A stretch of DNA of 64,000 bases. Source: Antedon mediterranea. Its lineage: Eukaryota; Animalia; Echinodermata. The notes beneath the pieces are model-generated. The model saw only the letters and a program-made list of their open reading frames with translations. It was not told where the DNA came from and did not search any database. Within the stretch, counting starts at the first letter, position 1, and each line of letters opens with the position of its first letter. Shown piece after piece: positions 9,135-64,000 of this stretch. Location: the NCBI RefSeq assembly GCF_964355755.1, contig NC_092674.1, positions 15,562,001 to 15,626,000 of the forward strand, written 5' to 3'. Position numbers and translations under genes: made by a program.

Positions 9135-12100
9135 CACATTTATTTAGTCATCAATTACAGTACATCATAATTACAGTACAACTGAGAACAGGGATCCTGC
9201 ATAAAAAAGCTGTAGCTTCGTTTTTTTGTAGGACCCTTTTACATAAGAACAAGTATATAGAACTTAAATAAACAAAGGTGTTGTTAATCAGCATATAGTG
9301 ATAAAAAGTATTTTTTAACCTATTTTTTTATACATTTATTTTGTTTCTTTAAGATAACCGGTTTATTACCACCATTACAAGTGAATTCTTTCCACAATTT
9401 TGGTCCATATATGTGTATAAACTGTTGACTGCAAGTTAGTCTTGTGAAGGGAATTTCGAATTCAGTTTCTGTTCTGAGGTTATGAGTAGGCCTAATACTG
9501 TCACAGTATTTAAAAATATTTAAAATGTGATGTGGTAATTCATTGAATTTTACGTTTGCCATAAATCCTATGACGTTTACTTTGTAAATATCATAAACGT
9601 TTAATATTTTTAGTTTCTTAAACAGTGGCTCTGAGGCTTGTCTGGATTTAGAGAAGGTAATGCATTTTACAGCTCTCTTTTGGAGTTTTAGTATTAATTC
9701 TAACGTGCTCTTGTATGTATTTCCCCATATTAAGTTACCATACTGAAGGTGAGGTAATACTAAGGTGTTATAAAGACTAATACGGACTTTATGAGGAAAG
9801 AATTCTCTTAATTTTAAAAGTATACCAATTGCCCTAGACATTTTTTTCCTAATAAGCTGTATGTGATGTTTCCAGTTAAGATTTTCGTTTAAAATTACAC
9901 CTAGAAATGTCACATTTTCTTTTCTATGTAATAACACATTATTCATTTTTATTTTAAACTGGTTTTTGTCAAAGTTCTTTTGGTTAGTTCTAAAAACAAC
10001 GTAATTAGTTTTGCTGACATTCAGTAACAGCTTATTTGCTTTAAGCCATACGTTTATTTTTTCTAGTTCAATATTCATAGTATGGTTTAACATTGTAGGG
10101 TCATCTCCCCTTGTTATACAAGTTGTGTCGTCAGCAAAACTAATTATATCAATTTGACTACTTGCTCGACTTATATCATTGATGTAAATTAAAAACAAAA
10201 GTGGTCCTAAAACAGAACCCTGTGGCACCCCTATATTGGTGTCTTTTAAACATGATGATCTACCGTTGGCATAAACATATTGTTTGCGGCCACTTAAATA
10301 GTTTCTAAACCACATTAAAACGATGCCTCTTATACCATAATGCGCCCATTTGCTCAACAGAATACTGTGATCGATAATGTCAAACGCTTTTGACAAATCC
10401 ATAAAGGTAGTAAGTGCATATTCCTTTTTTTCAAATGCATTTAATATTTTATGGACCAAGTCGATCATAGCATGAGAAGTTGAGTGTTTGTTTCTAAATC
10501 CATATTGATTGTTGCTTAACACTTTACATTTTGTAAGATAATTGTATAATTGATTATGGATAATCTTTTCAAAAACTTTCGAAAAATGGGCAACAGCGAT
10601 ATGGGACGATAGTTTGAGGCCAAATGGCGGTCCCCTTTTTTATGTATGGGAACTACTTTGGAAATTTTCAACTTCCCTGGTATTAGTCCAGTTTGAAGTG
10701 ATAAATTAAAAATATATGTCAGCGGCTTTAAAATATTGTATTTTACTTCCTTTACAACTTTTGCTGAAATATCATCAAATCCGGGGGCTTTGTTTGAATC
10801 GAGAGATTCAATAACTTTTAGTACCTCCTCCTCATCAACATAGCAAAAAAACATTGAGTTGCGTTGTTTGTTTGTGAGGTATTCAGAATATTTTGTCGTA
10901 GTAGACTCAATATTGTCTCGAACCTTACAACCTACATTAATAAAATAATCATTAATATGATTTACAACATTTTCGCAACCATATATAGTTTCATTGCTAT
11001 GTGTAAAAGAAGATGGAACTTTAGTTTTTCCTTTATTCGGATCAATTACATCATTTATAACATTCCATGTTTTTTTAATATTACCATTTGTTCGATTGAA
11101 AAGATTTTCATAATACATCTTTTTGGCGATTTTGCACGTGCGTGCAAAAGCTTTTTTAAATTCTTTATACGTATTTTTGTTTTTTTACAGTAGGGTGTTT
11201 TATGAACCTTTTATACAGTACATGCTTTCTTTTACTTGACCTTAGTAACCCAAAACTCATCCAGGGCTGCTTGAATTTGTCATACTGTTTTGATGACTTT
11301 GCAGTTTTTTTAAGGTGTTTGTTATATAGAAACTTAAAATTATCCAGAAAATCATTATAAGCGATTTCTGGATCAGTCGCTTCATATACTCCAAGCCACT
11401 CTGCACTTAATAAATCACTATTTAGTTTCATAATATTTCTATTGTTAACTATATACGTGTCACATGAGACTGAGGTGCCTTTATTCATGTGCGTGTTTAC
11501 GTGGGAAGACGAAGCAGAGTGAGTTATTTGATATACTGGTAAATGGTCGGAAATGTCCGAGATTAGTATACCAGATAGAACTTTTTCGGAAATTGTATTT
11601 GAAAATATGTTGTCAATTAGTGTTACTGACTGATCTTGTATTCTAGTTGGTCTAGATATAGATGGATAAAACGAGTGAGACATCATTATTTCAATAAAAT
11701 CATTTACATCACTGCATGTTACATGTTTAAGCAGATTGATATTAAAATCTCCCATGATATAACATGGTTTACCTTCTTTGTCTATAGCAGTGAGGACATC
11801 TTCAAGTGAATCATTAAAAACATCTATTTTCATGTCTGGTGGTCTGTAGACAGTACCAACAATTGCATTTTTACACTTTTTTTCAATTATCTCAATAAAC
11901 AGACATTCACAGAAATTAATTTTCAAATCGGTTCTTGTTTTGACCTCTATAGTATTTGAAATAAACAAGCCAACACCACCTCCTTTTCGATTTTCCCTGT
12001 CTAGAGCATGGAAATCGTAGTTTGGTAAGTATGGTCTAGGTGATGTTTCTTTAAGCCATGTTTCTGATATGCCAATTACAGTGAATGGGTGTTTAATGCC

Positions 12101-12440
12101 GTTTAAACAAGTAATTAATTCATCTAAGTGTTTGTTAATACTTCTGATATTATAGTGTAAAAATGAGTAGCTGATATTATTTATTTTATTAACAGAGTCA
12201 TTTAACTGGTCTGTGCTCATATACGAGCATGTCTCTATCGTACATATTTTATTGCTAAGACTATGATCAGTTAGTTCATCCTGTTCGTCAAAGTTGTTAC
12301 ATAGAGTAATAGGATTGAATAATATATCAGTTTGATTTGATAGATTGTCATTGTTTATACTTGTTGCGCTTTCATATATTAATGTTATCATTATTCTAAC
12401 AAATTTAGAGTAATACATATTTACACAACTCAAATACTAT
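9135..12440 (-). mobile_element. CR1/L2-group (Crack/Daphne-like) LINE with near-complete ORF2 (APE endonuclease + RT) split by two frameshifts
   Basis: ORF 11165-12433 (NIRS, ISETWL, YRPP, GDFN, TLIDNIF, SDHLP), ORF 10516-11118 (NYRPISLL), ORF 9320-10522 (QYGFR, DLSKAFD, GVPQGSVLGP, FADDT); 3' UTR stem-loop at ~9191-9236. Confidence 0.93.
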
Positions 12441-18174: not shown

Positions 18175-20458
18175 ATGAATGAAAAGAGAAAAAGTGGAGG
18201 GATATACTGTGCTGCAATTAATTGTAAAAGCAATTCAAAGGCCAACCCAGAACTTAAGTTTTACAATTTTCCCAAAGACAAGAACAGGTAAATTTATGTA
18301 ATTAAATAAGTAGCCTACATCTTAACATAGGCCTATGCTATGTAGGGACTAACCTTACTTTACTGTGTATTCAATTTATACATATATTAATAAACTAGGC
18401 TAGGTAGGCCTATTATTAATAATTATTATTTAAACGTAGGTATGAAATGATTATTATTATCATTATTAGGCTACTACTAGTACATTAATTATATAACAAT
18501 GAACTTACACTAATTTCTTCACTGTTCCCTGGTTATATTACTTTATCCTTTAAAATTTAGTACCTTAAACAACTTTTAAAACTTTCAATTCAAGAAACAT
18601 TTATTGACCAAATATTATATCATTACAATTGTTGGCATATAAGTAAAAATTTGGTCGAAAGACTACAAGAAGCCCAATTGGCATGTCGCTGTAGTCCCTC
18701 TTTTTACATTATACAAATAATAATAAATAATAATAATACTTAATATAAACAAATTGTGATCTTAATTATTTCATGCTTTCCGTCTCATGGTTAATATTTG
18801 CTTTCTGTCTCATGGTTATTTTATTTTGTTTAATTTAACTAGCCGTTACGTACATTACAGTATATTAACGCATGGAATGATTATTATTATCATTATTAGG
18901 CTAGGACATTAGTTATAATAACAGTGAAATTACACTATTTTGATTGTTCCCTGGTTATATTACTTATCCGTTGAGTAGCCCTAACAAACAATTTTTAATT
19001 GAATCTTATACTTAATATTTATGAAATTCAACCGTTAGTTAGTTAGTGGTTTTAGGTTAGGCTTAAGTATTTGACTTTAGGCCCTAACCAATTTGAAAAT
19101 CAATTAGCATGCACGCAGACGTCCTATAATTACGTAAACGTTAATTATAATAAAGCAAAAACTCACCAGACAATTATTAATTTACAGGTGTGCAAAATGG
19201 GCCCAGAACACACGACGCGCGAATTTGAGAAGGAAACCAAGTTCCTATTTACATCGTAATTGCCGCTTGTGCAATATTCATTTCGAAGAATCTCAAATAC
19301 TGATGGTCACAAGAAGACTTGTATGGAATGCAGTCCCTACAATATTTGATGTCCCAAATCCACCACACCAAGTAACAGTGCGGCGTAAATTACCCACAAG
19401 ACACTCGGAGGCAACACCAACTCCAGAAAACAATGTTCGAACGTTACAGACTGTTCACAGTGAAACAAGTAAGTGAATATAGTACTAGTGTACTAATAAA
19501 ATACATTACAATAATTAGATTGTGAAAGTTCTTATTTTCTTCCTGATACAAACATATCGTTCATTAATGTTCTCTTTTTATACTTACCGTATTTGGCCTG
19601 TCAAAAAAAGTTATGTTGGCATTTAATATTTCGTTGTGTGACGTGGTACTTATTCTTAATTGTTGTTTTTGTGTAGGGGCTCCCCGTCATCATTCTGATC
19701 ATAACTATGCTATGACGTCTACCGTGACTCCTTCAACACAAGACAGGACTGAAGATGAGTGCAAAGTTCCAAGTAAGCATTATATACCCTATACACAAAA
19801 TGTTATTTATTAAAGTCTAGATTGACTGATTGGATAACTGACTGACTGATTCCAACTACTACTATTATTAATATTATAATAATAATTATTATTATTATCA
19901 TTCTCAATCACAGATGCATGTGTTCCCTTTTTATTTCCAGATATACCGATACCCTTAAATGAGACGCCGGCTAGACAATCATGTCCGTCAACTTCAAGAC
20001 ATGCCAGTACTTTGAAATATCGAGTGAGGGTATGCCGACTTAAAGCAAAAATGAAGAAGATACAGTCTACCATCATTGAACTAGCAGGTGGTGATCAAAT
20101 CGAAAGTATAATTCAGAAAGCTAAAACCTACATGAGTACTAATGCCTTAGATTTCTTTGCCGGTCAACTACGAATTGGCAAGAAGAAACCAAAGGGCCGT
20201 CGTTATACAGTGAAAGACCGCTTGTTTTCAATGGCGTTACATTTCCAAGGTCCCAGGGCTTACAGGTTTTGTAGAAAGATGTTTGTCCTTCCACACCCAA
20301 GATCACTGAAAAGGTGGCTACAACGGGTCGAAGTGAAACCAGGATTTAATGATGCCACTTTTTCATCATTAAAAATTAGATGTGCAACATTCAACGAACG
20401 TGAACGTGTGGTGGCTGTGTCCCTTGATGAAATGTCCCTGAAACCTGCCATCAAATGA
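18175..20458 (+). CDS. Truncated P-element (THAP9-like) transposase, 335 aa: THAP finger, DHNY motif, coiled coil/HTH region, ending just after the first catalytic Asp
   Basis: Exons 18175-18287, 19188-19468, 19677-19772, 19941-20458 (GT-AG, 1008 nt, open frame). Motifs CAAINC...FPKD...W...CNIHF...AVPTIF, DHNY, GPRAYRFCR...LPHPRSLKRW, SLDEMSLK. Confidence 0.8.
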
Positions 20459-20459
20459 G

Positions 20460-20942
20460 ATGACTCAGCTAAATACTTTAGTATATGTAGCCGGTTACGT
20501 CGTCAAGAAAGTAAGTGTAAAGCACAACTGCGATATCTGTAACAGTGCGATGCGAGAAACCAATCAAAAACTGGAAGACCCAAGGCAGTTCCTAACACAT
20601 TTTAAGTCTTATATGCCCATCAACCAGTACAACGACTTCGGAGGATTAATTATGCCTACTGACAATGTAGTTAATGTCCTATCTATATGTGAAAAGATTT
20701 TTGTTTCTAATTTTAACAAATACTTACATACATCAAACATCATCAGAAAAATAAAGTTAAAAATCGCTACCATGTTACATAGATTTGGTATGAAGTTGAA
20801 TCTTTGTTCACCATCAATTGAAACATTGCTAATTGAAACGTACGTAAACCTACGCATATTCTATGCTGTTAAATTCTTCAACAGAGACATAATCAGTGAT
20901 AAGAAGAAGAGTAAAAAATTAATTAAAGTATCACATTTATGA
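20460..20942 (+). pseudogene. C-terminal domain of the P transposase, out of frame after the internal deletion
   Basis: LVYVAGYVVKK...CDIC...GGLIMP...LRI is the typical C-terminal region of P/THAP9 transposases. Confidence 0.75.
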
Positions 20943-21837
20943 GGTATGGTAAAGTTGTAGGAGGTCTGTACGCGCCCCGGTCTGTGCATTATCGGCTACA
21001 AATGATGATCATTACGACGGTCTGGTATGATGATTGAATAATTGTAAATATGATGATTTTATTTCAATGTTTCTACATTTTTTATATTTCCTCTGGGTGG
21101 CCCGTGCATCATTTTGCAATAGTTATTGAGTTAATTTTAAACTGAGACTATACTATAACATAACTAATTGCTATCTCAGGTTTTAAATAAATTATAATAA
21201 CAAATGAATGTCATGGCGAATGATGGGTACATAATGCAGTAGTCCTAGTATGAATTGTCTCAGAATTGACTATCATAATTTGTTTCATGTCATGACTGTA
21301 GGCTTAAGCCTATGATTGTTTATAAATATATTCCTAAAAATTACTGCAATAAAATAGTCGAAGTAGTGATTTTAAAAAGTGACTTCTTGTTCTTTTTTAA
21401 TTGTTTATAACACACTATTTGACTAATATATTTTCCTAATATGCACTGTTTTGCTGCTGGATGAAAAGTAGTATATAAGATCTTTGGAATAAACCAAAGA
21501 TCATATACTATTATTGTGATGAAAAAAATTGAGTATTCAGTTACAATACAGTAGACATATCTGATCCATAAATCTACTCGTTTGAGCGAGAGGGCGCCCT
21601 ATAAAATGAGCTCCATGTGTGTTACATGAATTGCACGTAAAATTCCGAGAGTGTCCTATCTTTAGTATAAGATCTTTGATATTCTTTGCTTTTGGGGGCA
21701 GCAGATATAAACATGACGTAGAGAGAGAGACTTAGCATGCAGTAGGCAAGAGAAAACAAGGCCTAAACTAAGAAGAGCCTAGGCCTAAACTTACATTACA
21801 ATACAAGTTGACAATAATGGTTATAAGCGCCAAGTAA

Positions 21838-22835
21838 TAGTTTCATTAAAAGTAAGTAGCCTACCTAGGCCTAGCTAGACTGGGGTGCCACTCAGCCCAG
21901 CCCGGAAAGAAAGTGTCTGAATGCCTACTCCAGGACCAGGGCCTACTACTGCATGCATGCTATGATGAATTACTAGTTTCATTAAAAGTAAGTAGCCTGC
22001 CTAGCTAGACTGGGGTGTGTGGAGCCGTGAAATGTGCAAAAAGTCACATTTGTGCAAACAACCACATTTGTGTAAACATTTTACCTTCAAATGTGCAAAC
22101 AACCACATTTGTGCAAACATTTTACCTTCAAATGTGCAAATCTGTTAAAATTCATAACCCGCAAATGTGCAAACATCACGCCGTTAAATGTAAAAACGAT
22201 CAGTTTTGACGTTAAATGTGCAAAAGGTATTCTACAAATGTGCAAAGCATTCTTCAACCAAGCTCCTATTCCATTTTATATTTTTGGTTCGTAGGTCTTT
22301 CAGAGTAGAAATAACAATAGGAAAAAGAGTATAATAAAATGTTCAATATCATAACTAATTATACTGTTGTATTTTATTATAATCAAAGGCTCCAAATCGC
22401 CTCGGCTAAATTCAAGTCGGCCCCAAGTCAACTCGCCCTGAAGTCAACTCGGCCTCAAGTCAACTCGGCCAAAAACTAATCGGTCAACTAACATTCATAT
22501 TCATTCTAATATTCATCCCTATAACATGCGCACTTCGTTTTTATTATTTTTCTTCTGTTCAGTAGACTTATTTTGTCCCATTCATTTGCACTTTTTGCGT
22601 TTCATTTGCAGGTTATACATTTTTACAGATTTGCACATTTGAAGGTAAAATGTTTGCACAAATGTGGTTGTTTGCACATTTGAAGGTAAAATGTTTGCAC
22701 AAATGTGGTTGTTTGCACAAATGTGACTTTTTGCACATTTCACGGCTCCACAGGGTGCCACTCAGCCCAGCCCGGAAAGAAAAGTGTCTGAATGCCTACT
22801 CCAGGTCTACTGCATGCATGCTATGATGACTTACT
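21838..22835 (+). repeat. ~135-bp tandem duplication; the second copy is split by the MITE at 22018-22752
   Basis: tagtttcattaaaagtaagtagcct...ggggtgccactcagcccagcccggaaagaaa...tgcatgcatgctatgatga occurs twice. Confidence 0.85.
22018..22752. mobile_element. MITE with TGT...ACA termini, ~130-150-bp TIRs and 5-bp TSD GGGTG (Ginger-like)
   Basis: tgtggagccgtgaaatgtgcaaaaagtcac / gtgactttttgcacatttcacggctccaca; gggtg on both sides; the empty site survives in the sister duplicate near 21881-21895. Confidence 0.85.
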
Positions 22836-23538
22836 GACCACCTCTACTCTATATAGCTGGCTAGGCCTAATATATTTATATATAATGATATAATTTATTA
22901 AGTTTTAAAAGATTTGTTGAAACTAAACTTTCTAATTCAATCATTAAAGAGAATGTGCTGGCCTGTGGCTGTGCTGCGGTTTACAACTCCCTGATGAATG
23001 CGATTAATTATAATTGATTGGTAGCCAACAAATAGTGCTATTTTTTTTAAAGATTATTAGTTGAACTTTTATGAATTATAATTTTATATATAGGCCTATA
23101 CATATAATCCGACAAAAACCCAAATATTTTTTTCTAGCCTAAAAAATACATTTTCTCATTTTTTACTGAATTTTGCTAAAAACTGAATTTACAAACAAAA
23201 GTAAATTAATTTTTCATTTTTCTAACATAAGGGCAATTTATTTGAATGTTTACAAAAAAAATTATAATTAATATTATAATTTTTCCCTAGAAATTAAAAA
23301 ATGCCGGCTGTGCCAAATTGTAGGTGTGTACATATCCATAACAAAATTACAACAAATCATTTTTTCTTAGTTGCTTCTTCGATATTGTCTATGGAGGCAT
23401 AACCAACTTTGACTTTATTTGAGGGAAAATTTAATATTTTTAATAGTAGAGTGTTTAAACTTCCTATCAATTAATATTTCCTATAAATTTATATTGTATT
23501 TTAGTATCCCAAACAGACCAGTACTTGCCAACTAGACA

Positions 23539-26500
23539 ATGCAAATCAATGTCTTTGATCCGTTAACCAATTCAAGTGTCGATGTTCCTCTACGAAAGAC
23601 GCCTTCTTCAGGCTTTGTAGTGTCTCTGAGAACACTTGGTAAGTATCAAGGGTCACCTTACTTTATTATCATCCTAAATCACCCAATGGGACATTCTGTG
23701 TCACTTTGAGGTCTCCACTCAATATTTCTAATCAAATGTTCAAGTCTTAGCAACATGATTAGTAAAACTTGAATACAACTAAATTCAATTCACATTTATT
23801 CAGCAATATATATATATATATATATATTTTCTTTGTAGTTCACCACCACCTTTTTATTCATTCAATATTTCAGTAAATAATTTCTAAACATTTTCTACCT
23901 TTGTTTGTTTGTTTCCTTTTTTTGCCCAAATTAATATCATAATGTTAACCTTTAGTATCAATCATACTGTACCATTAGTAAAAATGATTTTTGTTAAATC
24001 ACATTCATTTATATTTCATTTAACATTTTTGTTTTCTGTATAATTACTATACATTAATACAAGTATTTATTTGGTTAAATCATCTATTTGCAAAACCAAT
24101 TGTATATTAATCAAAATTACAGTCTTTGTTACTCATTTAACTGTGCTTTTATACTACAGTAACTACATACAGTAGATTAAATGCATTGTATGGTGTGTGC
24201 ACTGATAGTATTAAGTATTAACCTGCACACCTACATACAAACATGTAAACATACACAATCATTACATAAGTTTGCACCTTTAGTATATCATTATTATGAA
24301 TTACCGTAAATATTTAAATACGTTTACTTATTATAAACACTTTAAATATAATGTAATACATAAATACTTATTATAAACACTTTAAATATAATGTAATACA
24401 TAAATACTTATTATAAACACTTTAAATATAATGTAATACATAAATACTTATTATAAACACTTTAAATATAATGTCATTTATTATAAAATATTGCATTCTT
24501 GTCTCCATTTTAGTACATAGAATACAATATTAATTAATAGAGCATTTTTTTTTTATTAAAAAAAATATTTAAGTATTTTTACATGTTTAAACATAAATAT
24601 ATATTTACATTGCTACATACACTTATTGCAGGAATCTTTTAAGACCCTTTGAAAAAAAATAAAAAAATCACAAAGAAAATCATTAAATAAAATTTCATAC
24701 TGTACAAGTTGAGAAACATAAAGAAACATCTTGATGGATTTAAGGCAAAATTCATTACAATTGATGACATGATACAGAATGATAACATTTTGAATTATAA
24801 TATAATAGATGTTTACTACTATTTTATTTGAAAGGCATCTACTTTGATGGTGCAGTAGGACTTAGCTATCGAGTTGGTGGTGATGGAAAGGAGAGAAAAG
24901 TTGTATGCACATCAGAAGATGGTAAACATTTAGTTGAACCAATAAATGGCTGGGCCAACCATTCTTCCTATGAACTTATTAGCAGTGCTCCAGGTAATAT
25001 TCTTTAATTTAATAGATATTCTGCAACAGTAAGAAGCTGATACAGAATGTTGGGAGAGAGAAACGCCACTTGGAGGGTTCCCAATCAACTTTTCAACTCA
25101 TTAATTTGGACGAGTATAATGTATGTGAATATTGTTATGTTAGTTTGGTTTATATTTAAAGGGGGATTCTGGGTTTAAAATTGCTTTTAAATATCGTTTA
25201 TTTATTAAATAAAAAATATTATAACAATATAGACATGTCAGAATGAAAAAGTAATAACGAGAAATAAAAAAAAAATTAAATTTCATATACATTTTAGGGT
25301 AAATTCATAGAAAGTCTGTTTTTCAGCAGCTTAGGGAAGCTCATTAATATTCATGAGATATTTACAAAATCACATCACCAGTGGATTCCAAACTCGCGAC
25401 GTCATGTACGTTGTCTTTGTCAACTAATTTACATCTCTCTCCCCTGTCAAACGACGACCACCCGATCATTGTGAAATACATTTTTTGTAGATTTTCTAAG
25501 CTAGGCCTAAAGTGTAATAATAACAGTAGTAGCATATATTTATTTGACATTTAATGAAATACAAAATTTAGTACAGATTACGGAGTCATAAATTATACTA
25601 TTTTTATACCTCTATAGTACAGATCGTATTATCGGCTTCACGTACAATACTACTCGAGGCCTAGCCTAATGGGCGAGAGCCATTCTGACTAGGGATTCCA
25701 TGCCACGATGGCTACGTTAAAACAGTGGGGCCCATAGCCCTAGCTAGCCTACTACTAGACGATTGGCCCATAAATAACAAAACCCATCCTATCAACCAAA
25801 CTCATAAACAATCTAAACCTAAAACGTTCTACAAAATCGGCTGTAAATATTGAAGCAAAACAAGGTCCGATCGCCGTCCACACGTATGGTTTCCCGATCG
25901 TCTAAAATAAAATAGGCTTAGTTTACTCTCCAAAAAAGCGGATACTCATGCATCAAGCAAGTACAGTACTGTAGACCAGGTAGTAGGAAGGAGACCTAGC
26001 CGATCCGGCCCAGTTAAAAATTGCGCTAGCTAGTGTAGTAGACCCTATGCGAATTGATACTACCAGGCCTTTTACTATAGGCTGCACTACAAAAATATTC
26101 CAACTCTCTCATTCGAGCTATATTATCTATACCATTCCGGTAGGTCGAGTCGACCTTCAATCAAATACTGTATATCGTTCATGTTGTGATTATAGACGGG
26201 GTATACTCGACCCGACCAGTTTGGTATTGTTGTATCTGCTTATCACGTGACGATGCCAGGCATGCCGGGCAGCAGAGAGAGCATGTGTATCGTCGTCTCG
26301 CTCGATCCGATCCTCAGCAGGAATGTACAGTATACGTTACGCTTCATTGATTTTGATTTTTCCCTAAGTCGGTGCGAAAATCGGCAAACGTAAAGTGCAA
26401 ACATATCTAATTTTTCACTATTTTGATGAATTTTCATAAAAAATTTACTTTATAAATGGGAAGACCGACTAAAATTACATCAGATAAGTATAATTTTACA

Positions 26501-29500
26501 AAAGTAATTGATATGGTTAATGATAACGAGTCGTCGGAAGACGGACCATTTCACGAATTTCCTATTTTGTAACCATAGTGTGATTTTGCCGTAGCTGCAC
26601 TTGTAATCTGGCCTGATTTCACAGCCTTCGTTCTGCTTCACTGGGCGCTTATATAAATTGAAACTTTTACCGTTCAAGAGACAAACAAATATATTTTACA
26701 TTTTTTACTATTCATTTTAAATCCGGAACCCCCCTTTAAACAATCCCAGTCTTGAGCCTACTGTGTTGTTCTTTGATACCAACAGCAATTCAAATGATTT
26801 TAAATCTAAATTTAAAAAGGCTAAAGGACAATGTCAAACATTTTTATATACACGTTTTGCTAATTATGTGGTTTTTTAAAAACCGTTATTGCAGTACCAT
26901 CTATTGAAGTTATGGATGATTATCCTTCTAAATCACAGACAGACATAGAGACAGAAAAACCATCTTGTGATGTACCTCAAATAGACAGTATTATTGACAA
27001 GCAAGAGGTAAGGAAACATTTAAAACTAAGGTGAGAACATGCATAGCAAAATGTTTTTGCATTATCCGGTACCTAATGATGTAATGCAAAATCTAAAAAT
27101 TACACTACAGGAAGTTGATAAAGACAGCACTGCAAAGATGAAGAAGAATATATAGATAATGAGTTTATAAAACAACCTATAAAAATACAGCATCTTACCA
27201 TTTACAAATGGAATACAATACAATTTCGTTACAATAATTGGTGTAATAAATAATAATAAATTATATAAATATTTATTGATGATATATATATATTGATGAT
27301 ATAATCATCAAAAGTTACTATTAAGAAAGCTTTACAATTGACACCTATATGACATTCTGAAAAGTAGACAAGCGTTTCAAAAACGTATTGATGAAATTTG
27401 CCACCAATGTGATACAGTCTGACTCATGAACTATAATTGATGTTCTAGAAACTACCTTTTTTGGTTCTTCACTTTGGAACAGTCTCCATTTAAGAGAAAA
27501 AAGAGTGGATGGATTAAAACTGGTACTAAACAGCACACTTATGATGGATAGCTTTTTTTCTTAGAATTCAACAAATTATGAAGTAATTGAACTGAAGGAA
27601 GGATATTCTTACACTGACGAAGAAGGAAATCAAAGAGCGGATGGATCAATAACGCTTATCAAGGGACAAATGAACATAGTGGTGGACACGGGTAATGCAT
27701 GGGACAGGCAAGTCATTCTGGATGGTTAGTCATTTTGTATTATTGTTTAAACTCAATTACAGGATATTTTAAAAACAAACAATTTCTACATGTCATGGCA
27801 GTTCTATCATGGCTATTCTACAGATGTGCAACTGTCATGTATTTTTTTCGTTTGGTCAACATGCAATTAAAAAAAGTCAACTGATATAGATGCAATTCTG
27901 CACATCATTCAATTTTGTAATAAGATTTTCCAATTTTCCTACAGTACAGTGTCAACAAGTTTCTGGTTGAATTTGACCTTTTATTTTGTATTTTCATAAA
28001 GTAAACAGTGATTATTTTTTTATATTTTTTTTTTCTATGGAAATGCATTAACTTTAATAAAACTCTAAAATGACCTATTCAAAATATTTTTTTATTAATC
28101 CTTTATTTTGTTATGTTTTTGGGGCACAATACATCATTAAGTTTTAATGTAATGTTTCTTTCTAGGACTGTCAACACATAATTTAGAGCCAGACCAAATT
28201 CAGTATGTTGTTTGTACTCATGGTCATTGTGATCATGTAGGAAACCTGAACCTATTTCTGAAAGCAACACAAATTGTTGGATTTGATATCTGCATTGAGG
28301 ATAAATATGTTGATCATCCATTTGCATTGGTCAGTACATCGCTTATAAATTAATTTAAAATTGTAATATTTTGTAATTAATTTGAGGTAATTCAAATTAA
28401 AACTAGAATCAGCCTAGTTTTTTTATATATAGGCTGTAAAGAAAAAAAAATGCTATAATTTTATGTATTCTGATAATATCAGCAATTCATGATTTTTTTT
28501 GTATAATAGCTCTTCATGGGGTAGGGAGCCACATACATTTAGGCAATAAAAGAATTATCAAACTCAGAAATCCACTCTTACAACACTAGGGCCTCGCACG
28601 CCCTTCATCTTCCTTTAATCAAACTTACTTTAATTCAACACAATGTCCGATATAGTGACTTTATATTATTTAATGTACTTCCTAAGGATATTACATCTAC
28701 CCTAAATTTATTTAAGTGTATGATATCATTTATTTAATGATGATGTTTTATAAAGTCTGTGTACATTTGCTTGTTTGAAAAGCGATACAATTTCTAATGC
28801 GAAAATCACGGATTGCTAATTTGTCTGACATTTGTTTTATTATTACCACCTCCAGCTTATTCTGTTGCCACTTTCCAACCAACTAAGAATGAACAACATT
28901 TTCAATTCATATGATTCAAAACACTTTCTACTACTGAAATACTACTATATGCTTTCAATAATTAATTCTTCTATTTTAGGGTGAACCCTTTATAATAGAT
29001 GATGACATAGAAGTTATAGCAACTCCTGGTCACACACATAATGATGTTAGTGTTGTGGTTAAGAAGACTATCAAAGGAACTGTTGTAGTTGCAGGTAACA
29101 GTACTATTATTTATGGTTTTTGGAATACACAATGATGTTAACCATATCACCCTGATTAAAATAATATTATATAGACATATTACATAAAGAACAAGGTTGG
29201 CTCAAACGTAAAATTAAAGAATCAATCAGCATAAAGAAACAAGATAAAGTGATGAATAAAACCAAGAAAGCCAAAACAAATATATGCATGAAGTAGAAAC
29301 ACACTACCAAAATTGGAGTGCTTGTGGACTTTGCTTTTTGCACCCAATGGAAAATAACATGCATGTTTCTGTTTTTGAGAGATAGATTTTGCTTTACTAC
29401 AAATTTGGATAAAAAACTTCCAAGATAATCACAAATGACGAAGACTGATGCTCACCAACCCCACTCTAAAAAACAAATGTTTAAAGTGGACAAAAAGGAA

Positions 29501-30157
29501 GGAGAGAAAAGGCTCAACTTTCAGTAAAAAAAAGAAATAACATTTCTTTTAGATGATATCAAACAAACAATTTCAATGTACATTAGTGAAATAGTTTATG
29601 AGAATTTATAGTTGCTCTGCTTTTCTAACAAAATCTTTGACCTTAGTTTTAAAAGGTGAAGAATGGTAAATGAAGATGCAATTGTGAATCTGTCAAAAAG
29701 TTGTATTAATTGATTGTTTTCTATGGCAGCCAAAACATAAATTATTATTGTGTCCTCCACATACAATATATTTGATTATTTTATTACAAAATGTATTACT
29801 AATTAAGTTTTCAGAGAATGAGAACAATACAAGGTTTGTCAGTAAATAAATATATTACAGTACACATATCTAGTTTGTATTTGAAATATGATTGTTTACC
29901 CTTTATTCGACACACATCTATTTTTAAAAAACAAGGTATTTATATACTGTATTTTGTTGTTTTTTAAAGGTGATTTATTTGAGAAAATGGAAGATTTAAT
30001 AAATGCCGAGTACTGGATGTGCAACAGTGAAGATGAAAAGTTGCAAGAAAAGAGTAGAAATATAGTATTAGGCGTAGCAAATTACATAATACCAGGACAT
30101 GGGCCAGGATTTAAAGTGCCAATAAAAACAACAGAAGCTGACACAAATAAAACCTGA
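23539..30157 (+). CDS. MBLAC1: Metallo-beta-lactamase domain-containing protein 1 with an N-terminal TDP-43-NTD-like domain, 332 aa, 7 coding exons
   Basis: Exons 23539-23638, 24835-24993, 26895-27007, 27565-27724, 28166-28329, 28980-29094, 29970-30157; all GT-AG, phase-consistent, 999 nt. MBL motifs RADGSITL, VVDTG..W, THGHCDHVGNLNLF, TPGHT, AGDLFE, IIPGHG. Exons 4-7 are secure; joining exons 1-3 is a prediction. Confidence 0.9.
24325..24474 (+). repeat. 40-bp minisatellite, ~3.75 copies, in MBLAC1 coding intron 1
   Basis: Unit tacttattataaacactttaaatataatgtaatacataaa repeated perfectly. Confidence 0.95.
25160..26735. mobile_element. Non-autonomous Kolobok-like DNA transposon (TTAA TSD) in MBLAC1 coding intron 2
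   Basis: ttaa|agggggattctgggtttaaaat ... attttaaatccggaacccccct|ttaa; TIR 19/22; RR...YY termini. Confidence 0.8.
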
Positions 30158-42302: not shown

Positions 42303-45300
42303 ATGGAAAAGACGAACAAATCTCAAGATACGTTCGACTGTATTGTAATTGGCGCAGGAATCATCGGCTCATCAACAGCATACTCCCTGGTTAAACAGAC
42401 TAAACACGTTATGTTACTTGATCAGGTAAGAAAATGGTAGTGTACTCAGCTACATACTGTAATTCCTTTGACAATGTATGCTCTGCAGTATGCAATTTTT
42501 GTGAAGTAAACGCTACAATATAACCCTCCTTTAGGAAATATAATGTAACACTACAGTCAACCCCTACTCAAGGCACACCTCTATTAAGGGGACACTTTTA
42601 GGCGTGCCAAATGTTTGATTCAACCGGTTTTTCATCATAAAAAAAAAACAATTTGTTGGGTGTCCCGAAGGTTTCCCCTAATATATTCTCTACTGTAATT
42701 TGCAAGGTAATGTATCTAGCCATGATGACATAATCCATGGTACCGTATATTATGTCAACAGAAATAAGAATATTGTGTCGACTTGACAATATAAATTGTC
42801 TTGACAAGTCGTCAAGTGTATGGCACTTCGACGCTTCCGTATACTGATGATTTAATACAATAAATTCCGTGTCGAATTGTAGTCAGGTCAATTCTTATTT
42901 ACGTCACACTACTTATGTACGACAAAAGTCGCGCCTAAATTTGGATCGGAATCTTGAGAACATATCGTGGAAAATGGGTTCAGTGGTAAAGCATAGAATC
43001 GTTCACACCAAAATCGTACGATTTGAATACGTACTTGATTCGGAATCTGAATTCGGAGCGATGGATTAAGAAGCCATTTGTTTCCTAAAATCGTACTATT
43101 GTTTTTTCAATCAACAGTGAGCATGAATGACCTCGCTTGACACCGTATAACCAAATTCGTTCGTTATTCGTGTGAAAAAGCACACTTAATGCTCGCGCTA
43201 TTTTCTCATTGCGCCGGACCAAATCACACTGAGCCCAGATTCTGGCCCTGGTCCATGGAGAAATTATTTGGATATAATGTAGGGCCTAATTCCTAATAAT
43301 TTATATGTACTGCACATGTTGATTAAAAACTTCGCATCATCATTATTTTTTCTCATTAGAGTAACGTTTCCACTACGTTATATTATTGTTAGGTATTAAA
43401 CGTTATGATTTATTTACTCATCGTTTATAAATATTCATTCATTCAATCTTTTATTTCGGAATCTCTGGTCCATAGAAAGGAAAAAGTACATATAAATAAA
43501 ATAAAATAAACAAGACTAATTACTACTACTCATCTTAGGATGGCATTCCATCTGGAGAGCATCTTCGACTTAACTAAGACATTGCTCATAATCGTTGAGA
43601 CTAAAACATTTTCCTTTGCATTTAGTCTACCCATCAGGCCATATATTATATATATATATAAACTTTATTTAGACACGAGACTGATGTGCAGTACAACTCG
43701 TTCAATCAATATTGATTGTTTTTACACAAGTTCGTGATACTGTATTACAACAAAAAAATCAACACCATATAAATACGACAGAAAGAAACAAAATTACAGC
43801 AGAATCCCCTTCATCTGACACCTCTATTTAGGGTACACCATACCGGTACTTCCCGTGTAAACGGGAACCTTTATCGTAGTGTATAATTTATGGGGATTCT
43901 ACTGTAATACATAATACATCTTTTTGATTTCATTTACCTTAAAATAAATTAGTGATAAAACACACATTTTATATAGTATTTAGCCATTTTAAAAGTTGGA
44001 TGTACAAAATCGTAGATTACCATACCATTAGGTTTTACAATGCATTTTTCAGATACGTTTTAAATAACTTAACTGAATTTGGAAGGGTATCAACTATCCC
44101 ATATAATTGCTCCACGATAAGACAGACTTCGTTTTTTAAAATCGGTTTTTGGCTTCGGGATGAATAGATGTGTATCACTGTGCCTTAGATTATAATTTAT
44201 ATCATTGTATGTAAATACATTATTTAGGTAAGGTGGGGCATTATCTGTCAAAACCTTATATATAACCATACAACATTCATATCTATCTTGATAAAATAAA
44301 GGTGACCAATTAATTTGTCTTAGTGCCTCACTACTAGGTGTGTCCCATGTTAGACCACACACGATTCGAGCTGTTCTGTTTTGGATAGTTTGAACTCTTT
44401 TCATTAGAGTTTGACTACTATTTCCCCAAATTATGTTACAATAGCTCAAGTAAGGTATTACAATAGAGTTTGCAATATGTTTTAATATGTTTTGTGGAAA
44501 ATCATAGCTACATCGTCTGAGCATACCCAATCCATTTAGAGCTTTACCTCGAATGTATTCAATCTGATTTTTCCATGATAAATGTTCGTCTATTATGATA
44601 CCGAGATGTTTGCAATATCGAACGCGTGGTACAACATCGTTATCTATATTAACTGATCTATTTTTTTCTTTGGTGGTTGCCAATCGGTTTGTCGATCCGA
44701 TCAACATGAACTCGGATTTAGAGACATTTAGACTCAATTTATTATTTTTTAGCCAATCGTCGATTTGTATAAGTTCTTCATTTATACTTTGGTATATTTC
44801 ATTTTCATTTTTTGAAGAACAATAAATTATAGTATCGTCAGCATACATACTTATTTTACATTTGTTTGCAACTTTCGATAGGTCATTTATATTTAAGAGG
44901 AAAGCAAGTGGGCCCACGATTGACCCCTGAGGCACTCCACATTGGATGTGTGTATAGTCAGACAATGTATTATTTACATTTGTGAATTGCTTTCGCTCAG
45001 ACAGATAGCTCTCGAACCATTTTAAAACATATTTACTTAAACCATAAAGTCTCAATTTGCTTAATAGTATGTTATGGTTTACCGTATCAAAGGCCTTTTT
45101 AAAATCTAGTAAACAGATTCCGACCAGCTTACCCTCGTCTATTGCACTATACCAGTCTTCCGTCACTTTTGTAAGTGCAGTAGATGTTGAGTATGATGGT
45201 CGAAAACCTGATTGATTTATACATAACAGATTATTATTATTCAAAAAAGCATAAAGTTGATTAAAAACGACTCGTTCAATTATTTTTTAAAGTATAGGTA

Positions 45301-48300
45301 GGACGGAAATGGGACGATAATTATTAAGGTTAGTTTTTTCACCATTCTTAAAAATTGGCGTGACCTTTGCTATTTTCCACGTATTTGGGAATTTACATGT
45401 TGTGAAGGAGTGATTTATGATTCTTGTAATTGTTGGGGATATAATCGGGGCAGACAGTTTTAGAATGCCCGGTGGTAAGTTATCATGACCAGTGGCTTTG
45501 TTTTTTGAAAGATTACTTAAGTATTTATATACAAATTCACATGTGATGTGTTCGAATTCAAAATTATTTTCGGTGAAAGCATCGATTTCATCATAATTTA
45601 TATCATTTATCGGCTCATGTATTTGTGATGCAAGATTTGAACCTATATTTGAGAAAAATGTATTAATTTCATTTGCGATGTCCTTAGCTTTATAGAGGAC
45701 ATCGCCATTATCATTGCAAATTGTTTGAATAGTTTGAGTTTTCTTTTTTGACGATAAAATATATCTTATGGTATCCCATGTTTTTTTTACATGTTTTTAT
45801 TTTCTTTTATACTTTCTTGAATAAAATTAGCTTTACTTTTACGTATTAATTTATTGCACATATTTCTATACTTTCTGTACCTTTTCCAGAGTGATTCATT
45901 TTTAGAATGTTTACATTCTCTTTTGAGTTTATCTCTTTCTCTCATATTTCCAATTACATCATCAGAGAGCCAAGGAGCTGTTTTTTTTACGTACCCTGTG
46001 TTTTTTCCAAGGAGCATGTTTATCTAAAATGTTGGTTAGTGTAGTTTCGAGAAGTTTGGCACTCTGACTTACGTCGCCACTGGCGGTAATACCATTCCAA
46101 TTTACCATTAATAAATCGTTTAAAAAACTGTCTTCATTAAATTTTTTAAAGTTTCGTGTCATTTTATAATTATGATCCTGTTTAATAATTTTATTTGTTT
46201 TATTGGAATCTTTAATATTTTTCGCCCTTTTTCCCATTATAGCGATTGGCATTGAGTGGTCACTTAAGCCGACGTGGATAACTCCAGACTTTAATATTTT
46301 AGAAACATTTGAGAAATACATAACATCTATTAATGTAGAGGAATGTTTTTCTATACGTGTTGGTTCTTCAATGATCTGTTTTAGATTAAAATTTTCACTT
46401 AATTCAATTAGTTTCTTTGTGTAGCAATGTGGATTGTCAGACATAACGTCACAGTTTAAATCTCCCATCATCATAACATCTTTGTGTTCCAGTTCAATCT
46501 TTTGAAATATATTTTGTAAATATTCAAAAAGAACTGCTGTAGTATTTGGAGGTCTATACCACAATAGAACAATTAGATTTTTACATTTATCACGTACTAT
46601 TTCAATAGATAGGAGTTCGAGTTCATTACACATTAGATCATTCCTAATTTTGTGGTTGGTTTTTAGGTTTATATAGAGTGCTACACCTCCACCTTTTTTA
46701 GTTTTACGTCTAGTCTGTGTAATATATAATTGTCAACATGAAAATCTTCATCAATAAATGTATTGTCTAGAAATGTTTCGCTTAAACCAAAAACATTGAA
46801 ATTGTTGTTATTTAGAATACGTTGCAATTCATCAAAATGTAAGTCTAGGCTACGTATATTTAAATGTGCAAATATAAAACCCTTTTGATTTAGTTCCTCA
46901 AATATATGAGGATCTTTTTTTACTATTTGGTTTATATCTGTTATTGTATTATTCCTATCATTTATTACATATGAGTGGTTATCATTAATTAATACATCAT
47001 CTATGGCCTGGGAACATTCAGTACTATTGTTAGTCTCTTTTTCGGACTGTGACTTTAATGTACTTCTTAGACTCTTTGGTCAATTTTTTCGTTCGTAATA
47101 ATAATGATCATAATTATGTACATTACCACAATATCTTGCTTTATGACCATATTGACCACACGATTTACATGTTAACTGTTCTTGATAGTAGCATTCGTAA
47201 GCTTGATGGTTGTTTAGTCCACATTTCCAGCATGGTTCATACATATAGTTTGACTCTTTGGAGCCATAACTAAAGTGTTGGTAACTGTCATTTCTTCCTT
47301 GTTGATTATAATAACCATGTCTATTTCGTTTCCAGGGGCTTGTATTTTGATTTCTGTTTGTCTGACATTCTTGAGCATGTTGCCTGGATGATGATTTCTC
47401 TGTATATAGAAATTGGAGATCATCAATATTTTCATAGAATAGTTTAGCTAGTCGTATGGATCCTGTTATGTTGAAATGTAAGCCATCAATGAATAGGGAT
47501 TCATCAACTGAGCCACATTGGTACACAAATTTTGAAGAGATGTTTATGAAGCCAGTATCCAGCCGTGTACTGAGATCGCTAAGTGCTGTATTTACACTTT
47601 GAATATCATCCATATGATTTGGGCGTGGAGGAATTGCTGATATATAAAGCTTCGATGTTGGTGACTTCATCATGACCATCGTGATTATTTTTTTCCATTG
47701 ATTCTTGGATTTCTGTTACCACCTTACCATTTGAGACATCATTTGTTCCTACCTGTATAATATAATATATCTCATGATTTTCTTAACAATTCATAGAAAG
47801 AAGGAATTCTACATTCCGTAAACATAAGGCTGGCACTGCAATGTCGAGGCCTTTGTAGCAACATTATTAAACCATTATCTATATATAAATTTACGTAAGG
47901 GCAAAATTCGGTAAATCGCGCGTTATTTCTAGAATGTTTACTCGATGGTATATAAAGTTGGTTCGTACTTTCGGTACTGATTTTAACCACCTGATGTAAC
48001 CCTGTTTACTAATTAAATTGAGTTCGATAATTAGTTATTGACGATTAAAACGAATTTAGGTTCAACGATTTGCCCCAAATAGGGGTGTTTTTCGATGGTG
48101 GTATACACTGTCTAATGGATGTCCGTCTTGAAAAATACCCGCAGACAATAATACGAGGATGCTTCGCATTTTCCTATCTCCTCCTACGATAATTGTTTTT
48201 AATGGCTGAAAACCGGTTGAACAGCTCGAGTATAGCATCATAATGTTGAAGACAGGCCGATTTTCTTTAAAAAATACTATTTTGATAGATTTAATATACG

Positions 48301-62974: not shown

Positions 62975-64000
62975 GTAATTTGCATGTTTCAGTTTGGTTG
63001 CCTCCGCATTACAAATTTATGTTTTCACATGTTATGTATTTAATCTGTGTGCCCCCAAAGAATACTAGAGGTGTTGAATCCACAATAACCTCATTCATGC
63101 ATACATATATATCTAGAGATTATTTACTGAATAGCCATCTTTAAATTACAGGAGTGAATTTAACATAGGCCTATTCATGGAGGAAGATTAATAATAATTA
63201 AGAGTAGTTTTCTATAAATATCGACCTTTAGGTGGCCAAGTAAAAAAAAAGATTTTCTTTAAAATGTGTACAATGAAAGAGGTTTGGTTGAAACATGCAC
63301 AGATAAAATTATTTTTGATATCTGTATCTTGTTGCTATTGTAACGGCCATTGTTAAAAACTACAGCTTTTTCTTGTAATTTTTGCTATTATTTCACTGTC
63401 AAATAAGGTAAACGTTGATTTTAATAACTCTTTCACGGATTGTTGAAATTTAATTTAATTTTTAAGAAAAGTTGATGAAAGACTTATGAACAAACTGAAA
63501 TCAAAAAATTGTTGGTCGGGCATGGATACCATTTATTTTCAATAGGGGTGTTTTTACTTGTGGTAAAAAATCCAATTTTGACCAAAGTTTGGAGCTTCAC
63601 ACTTGAATCTTGATTATATATATTCTATGGACCTTGTGTAAATGGATAAAAGGCAAACAATCATTTAATAGTTATCCACTTTGACCAAAACTTGGATTAA
63701 AAAAAAATTTATTTTGTCATTTTTATTTTTTTTTCAATTGATTAACTTGATTAAAGCTACTATTCAAAGTCTGATGTAATTAATCTTTATGTCCTTTTCT
63801 TACGTCATTAATTATCTAATTACAATCAACTAACATCAGAATAAAGAGACATTGCTTTATACATTGATACCAAAAATTATGAGCAAGGAAAACAGATACA
63901 GATATTTGTGTTCCCTACCTAAAAACTGTTCAAAATGTGGAACTGATTGGTATAATTAGAAATGCGTTAAAATCCCACCGTAGGTATGAGAATATTTAAT

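What the first reader, a model, noticed from the sequence alone, without database searches (positions are those of the whole stretch)
23539..30157. MBLAC1 nuclease fused to a TDP-43 N-terminal-domain-like module
Seen: two exons absent from the ORF track (23539-23638, 24835-24993) splice in phase to encode MQINVFDPLTNSSVDVPLRKTPSSGFVVSLRTLGIYFDGAVGLSYRVGGDGKERKVVCTSEDGKHLVEPINGWANHSSYELISSAP. An acidic linker exon (26895-27007) then joins them in frame to an MBLAC1 domain with all metal ligands (HxHxDH, H, D, H). Known: the TDP-43 NTD (human sequence recalled from memory: ...IEIP...VLLSTV...FPGACGLRYR...RGV...GILHAPDAGWGNLVY) is a ubiquitin/DIX-like fold that polymerises head-to-tail; human MBLAC1 is a single-domain MBL endoribonuclease linked to histone pre-mRNA 3' processing. 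By eye, V.L.T, F.GA.GL.YR, R.V and L..P..GW.N..Y all align, and the positions matching interface residues E17 and R52 are D and R. Inference: a self-polymerising or TDP-43-docking ribonuclease, which could physically link TDP-43 assemblies to RNA cleavage. I do not know of a description of this architecture but cannot exclude one.
Basis: partly seen in the sequence, partly recalled or inferred. Interest (0 to 1): 0.85.

Follow-up and report, generated by a model that had tools for sequence, protein, structure and literature searches.

The report
Feather-star RNase borrows TDP-43 domain
In feather stars a spliced gene joins MBLAC1 (an RNA-cutting enzyme in humans) to a strongly conserved, diverged copy of the assembly domain of the ALS protein TDP-43, whose binding surfaces have changed so much that it likely clusters the enzyme with itself rather than docking it on TDP-43.

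Summary
The fusion is real. Seven GT-AG exons give a 332-aa protein identical to RefSeq XP_071949472.1 of Antedon mediterranea, and one contig of run X1 joins all six junctions. [quoted passage not shown] Anneissia japonica has the same fusion, and the module is better conserved (79/84) than the enzyme (160/192). Only 4 of 152 MBLAC1-type proteins held carry it, all crinoid. All seven metal ligands are intact. Docking on TDP-43 is therefore unlikely (about 0.1); a rewired self-association module is my best guess (about 0.4), untested. A phase-1 intron closes the module about one codon from where TARDBP genes have one, suggesting exon shuffling. No description found in the papers searched; no look-alike among this scan's notes.

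The parts
21758..21851 (+). 5' untranslated exon (start inferred from the 94-nt loose end; donor GTAAGT at 21852); holds a 6-codon upstream ORF at 21817-21837
23505..23538 (+). untranslated part of coding exon 1, with in-frame TAG at 23533-23535
23539..23638 (+). coding exon 1: residues 1-34, first half of the TDP-43-NTD-like module (strands 1-2, start of the helix; D15, P17, R19, R31); ends in phase 1
24835..24993 (+). coding exon 2: residues 34-87, second half of the module (F37, G39, G42, L43, Y45, R46, D50, R54, V57, W73, Y79); ends in phase 1
   Evidence: (TDP-43_N E 2.6e-4 on this exon alone)
26895..27007 (+). coding exon 3: acidic, poorly conserved linker (residues 87-124; residues 85-127 hold 10 D/E and are 21/43 identical to Anneissia)
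27565..27724 (+). coding exon 4: start of the MBLAC1 domain (residues 125-178)
28166..28329 (+). coding exon 5: HxHxDH motif (H196, H198, D200, H201)
28980..29094 (+). coding exon 6: ligand H250
29970..30157 (+). coding exon 7: ligands D272 and H314, stop codon
30158..30663 (+). 3' untranslated region as far as contig 4 of run X1 reaches

Best explanation
This is the crinoid MBLAC1 gene, transcribed and spliced with two extra coding exons for a diverged TDP-43 N-terminal domain that likely came from TARDBP by exon shuffling and likely works as a rewired self-association module that would cluster the predicted metal-dependent ribonuclease without joining TDP-43 polymers. Shown: gene structure, splicing, conservation in two crinoids, intact ligands, sequence homology. 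Predicted: the fold. Inferred: (1) origin from the TARDBP exon that encodes the domain; (2) RNase activity like human MBLAC1, which cuts histone pre-mRNA and is proposed to be active as a dimer; (3) head-to-tail contact through the kept D15-R54 pair plus new residues on both faces (R19, R31, I35, Y36 on the tail; V41, V47, D50, E53, K55, V57 on the head), so that a dimeric enzyme with two sticky modules on 40-residue linkers would reach higher local concentration or form small clusters.
For: Splicing: one contig joins all six junctions. Constraint: module 79/84 identical between Antedon and Anneissia against 160/192 for the enzyme and 21/43 for the linker (Fisher p 0.02); of 23 contact positions listed from the NMR dimer paper only residue 85 differs between the two species, and V47I is the one change among 13 crystal-interface positions, so both faces are constrained. 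Homology: Pfam E 3.8e-5, hhalign probability 74%, E 2.7e-5, Atlas features 0.94 with 182 of 256 shared and Atlas structure TM 0.80, 0.76, 0.77, 0.77 to TDP-43 clusters against 0.67 or less for rows of other families. The E21-R55 salt bridge of TDP-43 (PMC5491494, passages) is changed on both sides (R19, V57), S29, which packs on V54-L56 (PMC5830921, passages), is Arg, and A33, Q34, C39, N45, R55 have become Ile, Tyr, Val, Val, Val: a pattern that fits a remodelled rather than a one-sided interface. Electrostatics are reported not to be the main force in NTD polymers. MBLAC1 dimer proposed as the active form (PMC6303110, passages). Origin: 19 of 20 genomic-looking TARDBP loci have a phase-1 GT donor in codon 80; the crinoid phase-1 intron lies in the codon aligned to 81.
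Against: Only 2 of 10 conserved interface positions are kept (2 of 8 after removing positions fixed by my search motif; 5 of 10 non-interface positions by the same correction, a difference too small to test well). Asp at the S48 position resembles the S48E change that disrupts polymerisation, and would face D15. Y4, whose change to Arg disrupts assembly, has no aromatic counterpart. High conservation fits any binding partner equally well. The confident AlphaFold model (pLDDT 79; Z 11.7, rmsd 1.9 over 78 residues to 6B1G) was built on an alignment holding 31 TDP-43 rows and is not independent. The intron match is one codon off, phase 1 is common, and the crinoid's internal intron at residue 34 was not matched in TARDBP loci. 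Only two crinoid species were available, and orthology to MBLAC1 is unresolved on the tree.
Confidence: 0.4

Rival explanations
1. The module no longer self-associates and is an adaptor for another crinoid protein (for example a histone-mRNA processing or localisation factor), using the ubiquitin-like fold as a docking surface.
For: Most TDP-43 interface residues are changed while the module is 94% conserved; ubiquitin-like, PB1, RA and FERM domains, common adaptors, are the next structural neighbours at Z 5-6.
Against: No partner is known; both faces are conserved and the D15/R54 pair is kept at the positions of the central TDP-43 salt bridge.
Confidence: 0.27
2. The module docks on, or caps, host TDP-43 polymers and brings a nuclease to TDP-43-bound RNA.
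For: D15, P17, T32, G42, L43, R54, V56 match TDP-43 contact positions and the head segment is still basic (+2 against +1 to +4). With a neutral tail it would end a chain rather than extend it. Cytoplasmic TDP-43 is linked to faulty histone 3' processing in mice, though indirectly (PMC4624943, passages).
Against: Head face: R55 is Val, G53 Lys, N45 Val, S48 Asp; tail face: E21 Arg, E14 Ser, Q34 Tyr, net charge 0 against -7 to -10 in 31 of 31 TDP-43 domains. Two-residue changes on one face abolish binding in human TDP-43. Identity to TDP-43 domains is 23-32% while these are 44-99% identical to each other. The crinoid's own TDP-43 was not retrieved, so its surface is assumed from other animals.
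Confidence: 0.1
3. The module acts within its own molecule: it binds the RNA substrate or folds back on the MBL domain to regulate it.
For: It has gained basic residues (R19, K20, R31, K52, K55) and lost the acidic patch; MBLAC1 lacks the accessory domain of CPSF73-type nucleases (recalled).
Against: Net charge of the module is still about -1; the linker is long, acidic and poorly conserved, which argues against a fixed fold-back geometry.
Confidence: 0.15
4. The module is not derived from TDP-43 but is another ubiquitin-like domain, or comes from a separate old lineage of TDP-43_N-like domains.
For: Below the Pfam cut-off; no TDP-43 chain found by phmmer or hmmsearch of the PDB or among 1.84 billion representatives at E 0.001; the Atlas lists short TDP-43_N-like clusters, one mostly Mucoromycota.
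Against: Pfam, hhalign, a shuffled control and the Atlas agree on TDP-43_N ahead of all other ubiquitin-like families; the best Atlas structural rows are TDP-43 proteins with RRMs; the phase-1 intron lies next to the TARDBP one.
Confidence: 0.08

Closest known systems
Human MBLAC1 (PDB 4V0H; PMC6303110) and its invertebrate relatives, including C. elegans SWIP-10 (PMC11441482, abstract seen)
   Same: Best solved match, E 9.6e-41 over residues 129-329; all seven metal ligands kept; RefSeq names the protein MBLAC1-like.
   Different: An extra 84-residue folded module and a 40-residue acidic linker at the N-terminus; absent from 148 of 152 MBLAC1-type proteins held, including sea cucumber, two hemichordates and amphioxus. 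Activity not tested.
TDP-43 N-terminal domain (Pfam PF18694; PDB 5MDI, 6B1G)
   Same: Predicted fold (TM 0.80), 9 of 16 residues invariant in 31 TDP-43 domains (9 of the 16 were fixed by my search motif), E17/R52-equivalent D15/R54, N-terminal position, phase-1 intron at its end.
   Different: 23-32% identity; under the Pfam cut-off; acidic tail lost; E21R, S48D, G53K, R55V, Q34Y, N45V; followed by a nuclease domain instead of RRMs and a low-complexity tail.
DIX-domain proteins (Dishevelled, Axin, SOSEKI; PMC7042713, passages)
   Same: A portable head-to-tail polymerising ubiquitin-like module fused to unrelated effectors; TDP-43 NTD is described as a DIX relative. This is what the crinoid module may work like.
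   Different: No DIX family match in Pfam; polymerisation of the crinoid module is untested.
Amphioxus Death-domain MBLAC1 model XP_078581665.1 (P0006)
   Same: An MBLAC1 domain behind an N-terminal homotypic interaction domain and a low-complexity linker.
   Different: Death fold, not TDP-43_N; single record, splicing not checked.

Membership tests
TDP-43_N (PF18694) | Score at or above Pfam's gathering cut-off (27.1 bits) | tested here: not met
   23.9 bits (Antedon), 21.3 bits (Anneissia). So it is called a diverged homologue, not filed as a formal member.
TDP-43_N (PF18694) | Significant, full-length profile match ahead of any other family | tested here: met
   E 3.8e-5, profile positions 3-69 of 74, only family on this stretch; 14.3 bits against at most 5.8 in 2000 shuffles; hhalign 74%.
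TDP-43_N (PF18694) | Fold: five-stranded sheet, one helix, extra hairpin | tested here: met
   By prediction only: Atlas model TM 0.80 over 79 residues; AlphaFold model on a TDP-43-rich alignment gives Z 11.7, rmsd 1.9, 78 aligned to 6B1G, next family Z 6.0 (not independent).
TDP-43_N (PF18694) | Conserved acidic tail (E14, E17, E21) and basic head (R52, R55) interface | tested here: not met
   S, D, R and R, V at these positions; tail charge 0 against -7 to -10 (residues from PMC5491494).
TDP-43_N (PF18694) | Head-to-tail polymerisation | not testable with these tools
   Needs SEC-MALS, AUC or NMR on the purified module.
TDP-43 (TARDBP product) | Two RRMs after the N-terminal domain | tested here: not met
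   No RRM family on P0001 or P0002, whereas control TDP-43s show them. The gene is not a TARDBP paralogue.
MBLAC1 | Seven metal ligands (HxHxDH, H, D, H) | tested here: met
   H196, H198, D200, H201, H250, D272, H314 aligned to 4V0H (ligand list from PMC6303110).
MBLAC1 | Closer to MBLAC1 than to other MBL-fold proteins | tested here: met
   4V0H E 9.6e-41, next PDB chain E 3.2e-6; up to 61% identity to other animal MBLAC1 proteins.
MBLAC1 | One-to-one orthology with vertebrate MBLAC1 | tested here: inconclusive
   The two crinoid rows group at 100/99 but sit on an unresolved fork in a tree of 33 rows (34 given, one without the motif dropped); a second crinoid copy was not seen among the 120 listed of 639 hits.
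MBLAC1 | Endoribonuclease activity on histone pre-mRNA; dimer | not testable with these tools
   Known for the human enzyme (PMC6303110, passages).

The most novel reading that the evidence does not exclude
Crinoids have turned the TDP-43 assembly domain into a targeting or chain-capping module on a ribonuclease: with a basic head and a neutral tail it would bind the acidic tail of host TDP-43, end the polymer and cut the RNA held there, physically linking TDP-43 to histone-mRNA 3' processing.
Probability: 0.1. Interest if true: 0.8.

Novelty: new variant of a known kind. Interest (0 to 1): 0.52.

Why it matters
[quoted passage not shown] Here it is re-used, under stronger constraint than the enzyme it is attached to, on a nuclease tied to histone mRNA processing and, in worms, to neuronal survival. 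That shows the domain can travel as a module, like DIX. The natural changes fall on the very residues that laboratories mutate to switch TDP-43 assembly off (E21, S48, R55), so the crinoid domain is a ready test of whether this interface can be rewired into an orthogonal polymer or a cap. The limits: it is confined to crinoids so far, the protein is already in RefSeq (without the domain named in the precomputed Pfam column), and no function is shown.

Tried and rejected
Complex prediction with two copies of the module gave no verdict (score 0.00 in both runs, alignment not used, controls not folded): no evidence either way. AlphaFold on the two crinoid rows alone gave pLDDT 41 and a fold search with that model gave nothing above Z 3.7: uninformative. 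phmmer and hmmsearch of the module against the PDB found no TDP-43 chain at E 10. The search of 1.84 billion representatives returned 10 proteins: P0001 and 9 repeat proteins that score by summing short stretches (four read); rejected as relatives, and TDP-43 itself was not reached. A search for TDP-43-like domains in proteins of 754-2150 residues gave 1 of 53 candidates, a partial TDP-43: weak evidence on other fusions. A second Atlas query for TDP-43_N clusters without RRMs did not complete, so how often the domain occurs in other architectures stays open. No run is on record as RNA; the evidence for splicing is the joints themselves. The three other runs (one sample) showed no exon joint among the 15 joints listed, 54 more not shown. 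Considered and rejected: annotation artefact (joined contig; second species); start at the exon-3 Met (exons 1-2 are the best conserved part); an N-terminal extension as in Anneissia isoforms X1/X2 (in-frame TAG in Antedon); a shared internal intron with TARDBP (locus L035 has a break near residue 33 but one codon away). Paper searches that showed no description of this fusion in their listings: (MBLAC1 with TDP-43: 1 paper, ALS proteomics, one mention); subscription journals are mostly not covered. The alignments in the supplements of PMC5491494 and PMC5830921 were not seen and may bear on which interface residues vary naturally.
Full report
Observation. A search with exon 2 alone returned 2 of 34 candidates: P0001, identical to this product and named MBLAC1-like protein of Antedon mediterranea (XP_071949472.1, XP_071949473.1), and P0002 of Anneissia japonica. 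All four Anneissia records (three sequences) carry the same N-terminal module.

Splicing. Five runs hold the stretch, none on record as RNA. In run X1 one contig of 967 letters skips all six introns at GT..AG, covers exons 1-5 with two differences (both in exon 5) and reaches exon 7; most unique intron bins have little or no cover. Its 94-letter loose 5' end maps, by its last 30 letters, to 21822-21851, followed by GTAAGT. An in-frame TAG just before the ATG fixes the start at 23539. This is one run of one study; RefSeq's identical model is a second, probably not independent, line.

Conservation. Antedon against Anneissia: module 79 of 84 identical, linker 21 of 43, MBL domain 160 of 192 (Fisher p 0.02 for module against enzyme). 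The module is therefore translated and constrained. Among 152 MBLAC1-type proteins held, a profile of TDP-43 domains marks 4, all crinoid (E 0.001-0.005; next 0.4). Sea cucumber (195-207 aa), two hemichordates (200, 212 aa) and amphioxus (205-245 aa) lack it. Only the best 120 of 639 hits were seen, and sea urchin, sea star and brittle star proteins were not among them, so the fusion is dated only to before the Antedon-Anneissia split.

The enzyme. Residues 129-329 match human MBLAC1 (4V0H) at E 9.6e-41; the next chain is at 3.2e-6. The seven ligands listed for the human enzyme (PMC6303110, passages) correspond to H196, H198, D200, H201, H250, D272 and H314. The same paper reports cleavage of histone pre-mRNA, presence in cytosol and S-phase nuclei, and proposes the dimer as the active form. 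On a tree of 33 MBL domains the crinoid pair is firm (100/99) but its position is open. RNase activity is inferred, not shown.

The module is a TDP-43 N-terminal domain homologue. Pfam: TDP-43_N is the only family on residues 4-77, E 3.8e-5, 23.9 bits, under the cut-off of 27.1; exon 2 alone gives E 2.6e-4. ESM Atlas: the two best feature hits are TDP-43_N clusters (0.94 and 0.93; 182 and 181 of 256 features shared) and the Atlas's own model matches TDP-43 proteins at TM 0.80, 0.76, 0.77, 0.77 (the two searches count as one source). To get a real alignment I scanned metagenome contigs with a short TDP-43 motif: 50 loci, of which 5 chance hits and 4 truncated domains were dropped, 9 were duplicates, leaving 32; one with a long insertion was left out of the alignments, leaving 31. 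Six were checked and are TDP-43_N above the cut-off, five with RRMs. Against the 32-row profile the module scores 14.3 bits, the best of 2000 shuffles 5.8; hhalign gives 74%, E 2.7e-5. AlphaFold on the joint alignment gives pLDDT 79 (five models 46-79), and that model finds 5MDI, 6T4B and 6B1G first (Z 11.7, rmsd 1.9, 78 aligned, next family 6.0), but this is partly circular. Against: single-sequence searches do not reach TDP-43, and identity to TDP-43 domains is only 23-32%, against 44-99% among them.

The interface is not the TDP-43 interface. The crystal paper names E14, E17, E21, Q34 on the acidic tail and N45, S48, R52, R55, N76 on the basic head, with salt bridges E17-R52 and E21-R55, and shows that two changes on one face abolish polymerisation (PMC5491494, passages); E17R and R52E are the standard switches (PMC12905282, passages). 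The crinoid has S12, D15, R19, Y36 and V47, D50, R54, V57, I82. Ten interface positions are at least 90% conserved in the 31 TDP-43 rows; 2 are kept (P19, R52) and E17 is Asp. Seventeen such non-interface positions give 11 kept. Nine positions were fixed by my motif; without them the counts are 2 of 8 and 5 of 10, too few to separate. The tail segment has net charge -7 to -10 in all 31 rows and 0 in both crinoids; the head is +1 to +4 against +2. S48 is Ser or Thr in 31 of 31 rows and Asp here; S48E disrupts polymerisation, as does Y4R, and Y4 has no aromatic counterpart (PMC5830921, passages).

Mechanism. Co-assembly with TDP-43 needs one intact face and neither is intact, so I put docking at 0.1. 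Both faces are nevertheless nearly unchanged between the two crinoids, the E21-R55 pair has changed on both sides, S29, which contacts V54-L56 in the NMR dimer, has become Arg where R55 has become Val, and A33, Q34, C39, N45 have become Ile, Tyr, Val, Val. The NMR paper also finds that salt does not weaken NTD polymers. I read this as a remodelled, more hydrophobic head-to-tail surface, specific for itself (0.4). On an enzyme whose human relative is proposed to act as a dimer, two such modules per dimer on 40-residue acidic linkers would raise local concentration or cross-link clusters, as DIX domains do for their effectors (PMC7042713, passages; the cross-linking analogy is recalled). An adaptor role for another protein (0.27) and a role in RNA binding or self-regulation (0.15) fit the data almost as well.

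Origin. In 35 loci where the end of the TDP-43 domain could be placed, 20 have a frame that closes within 78 codons (genomic-looking) and 19 of these have GT after the first base of codon 80; 15 run on as transcripts, 2 of them with GT by codon content. The crinoid's phase-1 intron lies in codon 87, aligned to 81. This fits capture of the TARDBP exon followed by gain of an internal intron, but the match is one codon off and phase 1 is common. A P-element/THAP9-like relic lies about 800 bases before the untranslated exon; no role for it is shown.

Novelty. Seven paper searches showed no description of this fusion in their listings; most subscription papers are outside the library. The scan's own notes hold no look-alike. 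The Atlas lists short TDP-43_N clusters of 68-131 residues, and related ones mostly from Mucoromycota, which may be fragments or free-standing domains; from memory, domain databases also list TDP-43_N in some other architectures, which I could not check. A single amphioxus record has a Death domain in front of MBLAC1, a possible parallel. A mouse study links cytoplasmic TDP-43 to faulty histone 3' processing indirectly (PMC4624943, passages), and worm SWIP-10 ties this enzyme family to neuron survival (PMC11441482, abstract); neither bears on crinoids directly. A preprint notes that the domain is conserved across animals and self-associates (10.1101/134072, passages).

Verdict. Observation confirmed; interpretation partly supported. 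A new variant of MBLAC1 with a real, expressed, strongly conserved, diverged TDP-43 N-terminal domain whose interface has been rewired. Interest 0.52; the TDP-43-capping reading has probability 0.1 and would deserve 0.8.

Noticed in passing
P0006 (XP_078581665.1, Branchiostoma hybrid), residues 48-122: MBLAC1 domain behind a Death domain (E 1.9e-13); a single record apart from the ordinary amphioxus MBLAC1 cluster. Either a second, independent gain of a homotypic interaction module or a fused gene model.
   Followed up: partly
P0005 (Biomphalaria), P0007 (Tegillarca), P0024 (Haliotis isoform X2): Mollusc MBLAC1 models hold a duplicated active-site exon: one copy with HxHxDH and one with changed ligands (for example Asn and Lys in place of the first and last His); an abalone isoform has only the changed copy. 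Suggests mutually exclusive exons that switch the metal site, in gastropods and bivalves.
   Followed up: no
window 19138-20942 +: Broken P-element/THAP9-like transposase (THAP E 6.8e-8, Tnp_P_element E 6.8e-13, THAP9_C E 0.011) just upstream of the gene; multi-copy by depth.
   Followed up: partly
window 21817-21837 +: Six-codon upstream ORF in the 5' untranslated exon.
   Followed up: no
window 21837-22000 and 22755-22835: The donor region of the untranslated exon is repeated about 140 bases downstream, and the stretch near 21883-21975 recurs near 22755-22835 (seen by eye): a local duplication that may offer alternative first exons.
   Followed up: no
window 23505-23538 +: Reads in frame like the end of the 27-residue N-terminal extension of Anneissia isoforms X1/X2 but with a TAG two codons before the ATG; the extension is probably not functional.
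   Followed up: yes
window 24327-24480: Tandem repeat of about 40 bases, about four copies, in intron 1 (seen by eye).
   Followed up: no
window 28295-28296: Run X1 differs at two adjacent bases, changing Ile221 to Lys; no differences in exons 1-3.
   Followed up: no
ESM Atlas rows: Short TDP-43_N or TDP-43_N-like clusters (67-131 aa), two mostly Mucoromycota among members with a recorded phylum: the domain may exist outside animal TDP-43.
   Followed up: no
window 62756-63043 +; 9320-12436 -, 44090-47715 -, 57728-60277 +: An exon of an FAD-dependent oxidoreductase (DAO E 2e-5) and several LINE-like endonuclease/reverse-transcriptase relics read from the six-frame list (the LINE label is by eye).
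   Followed up: no
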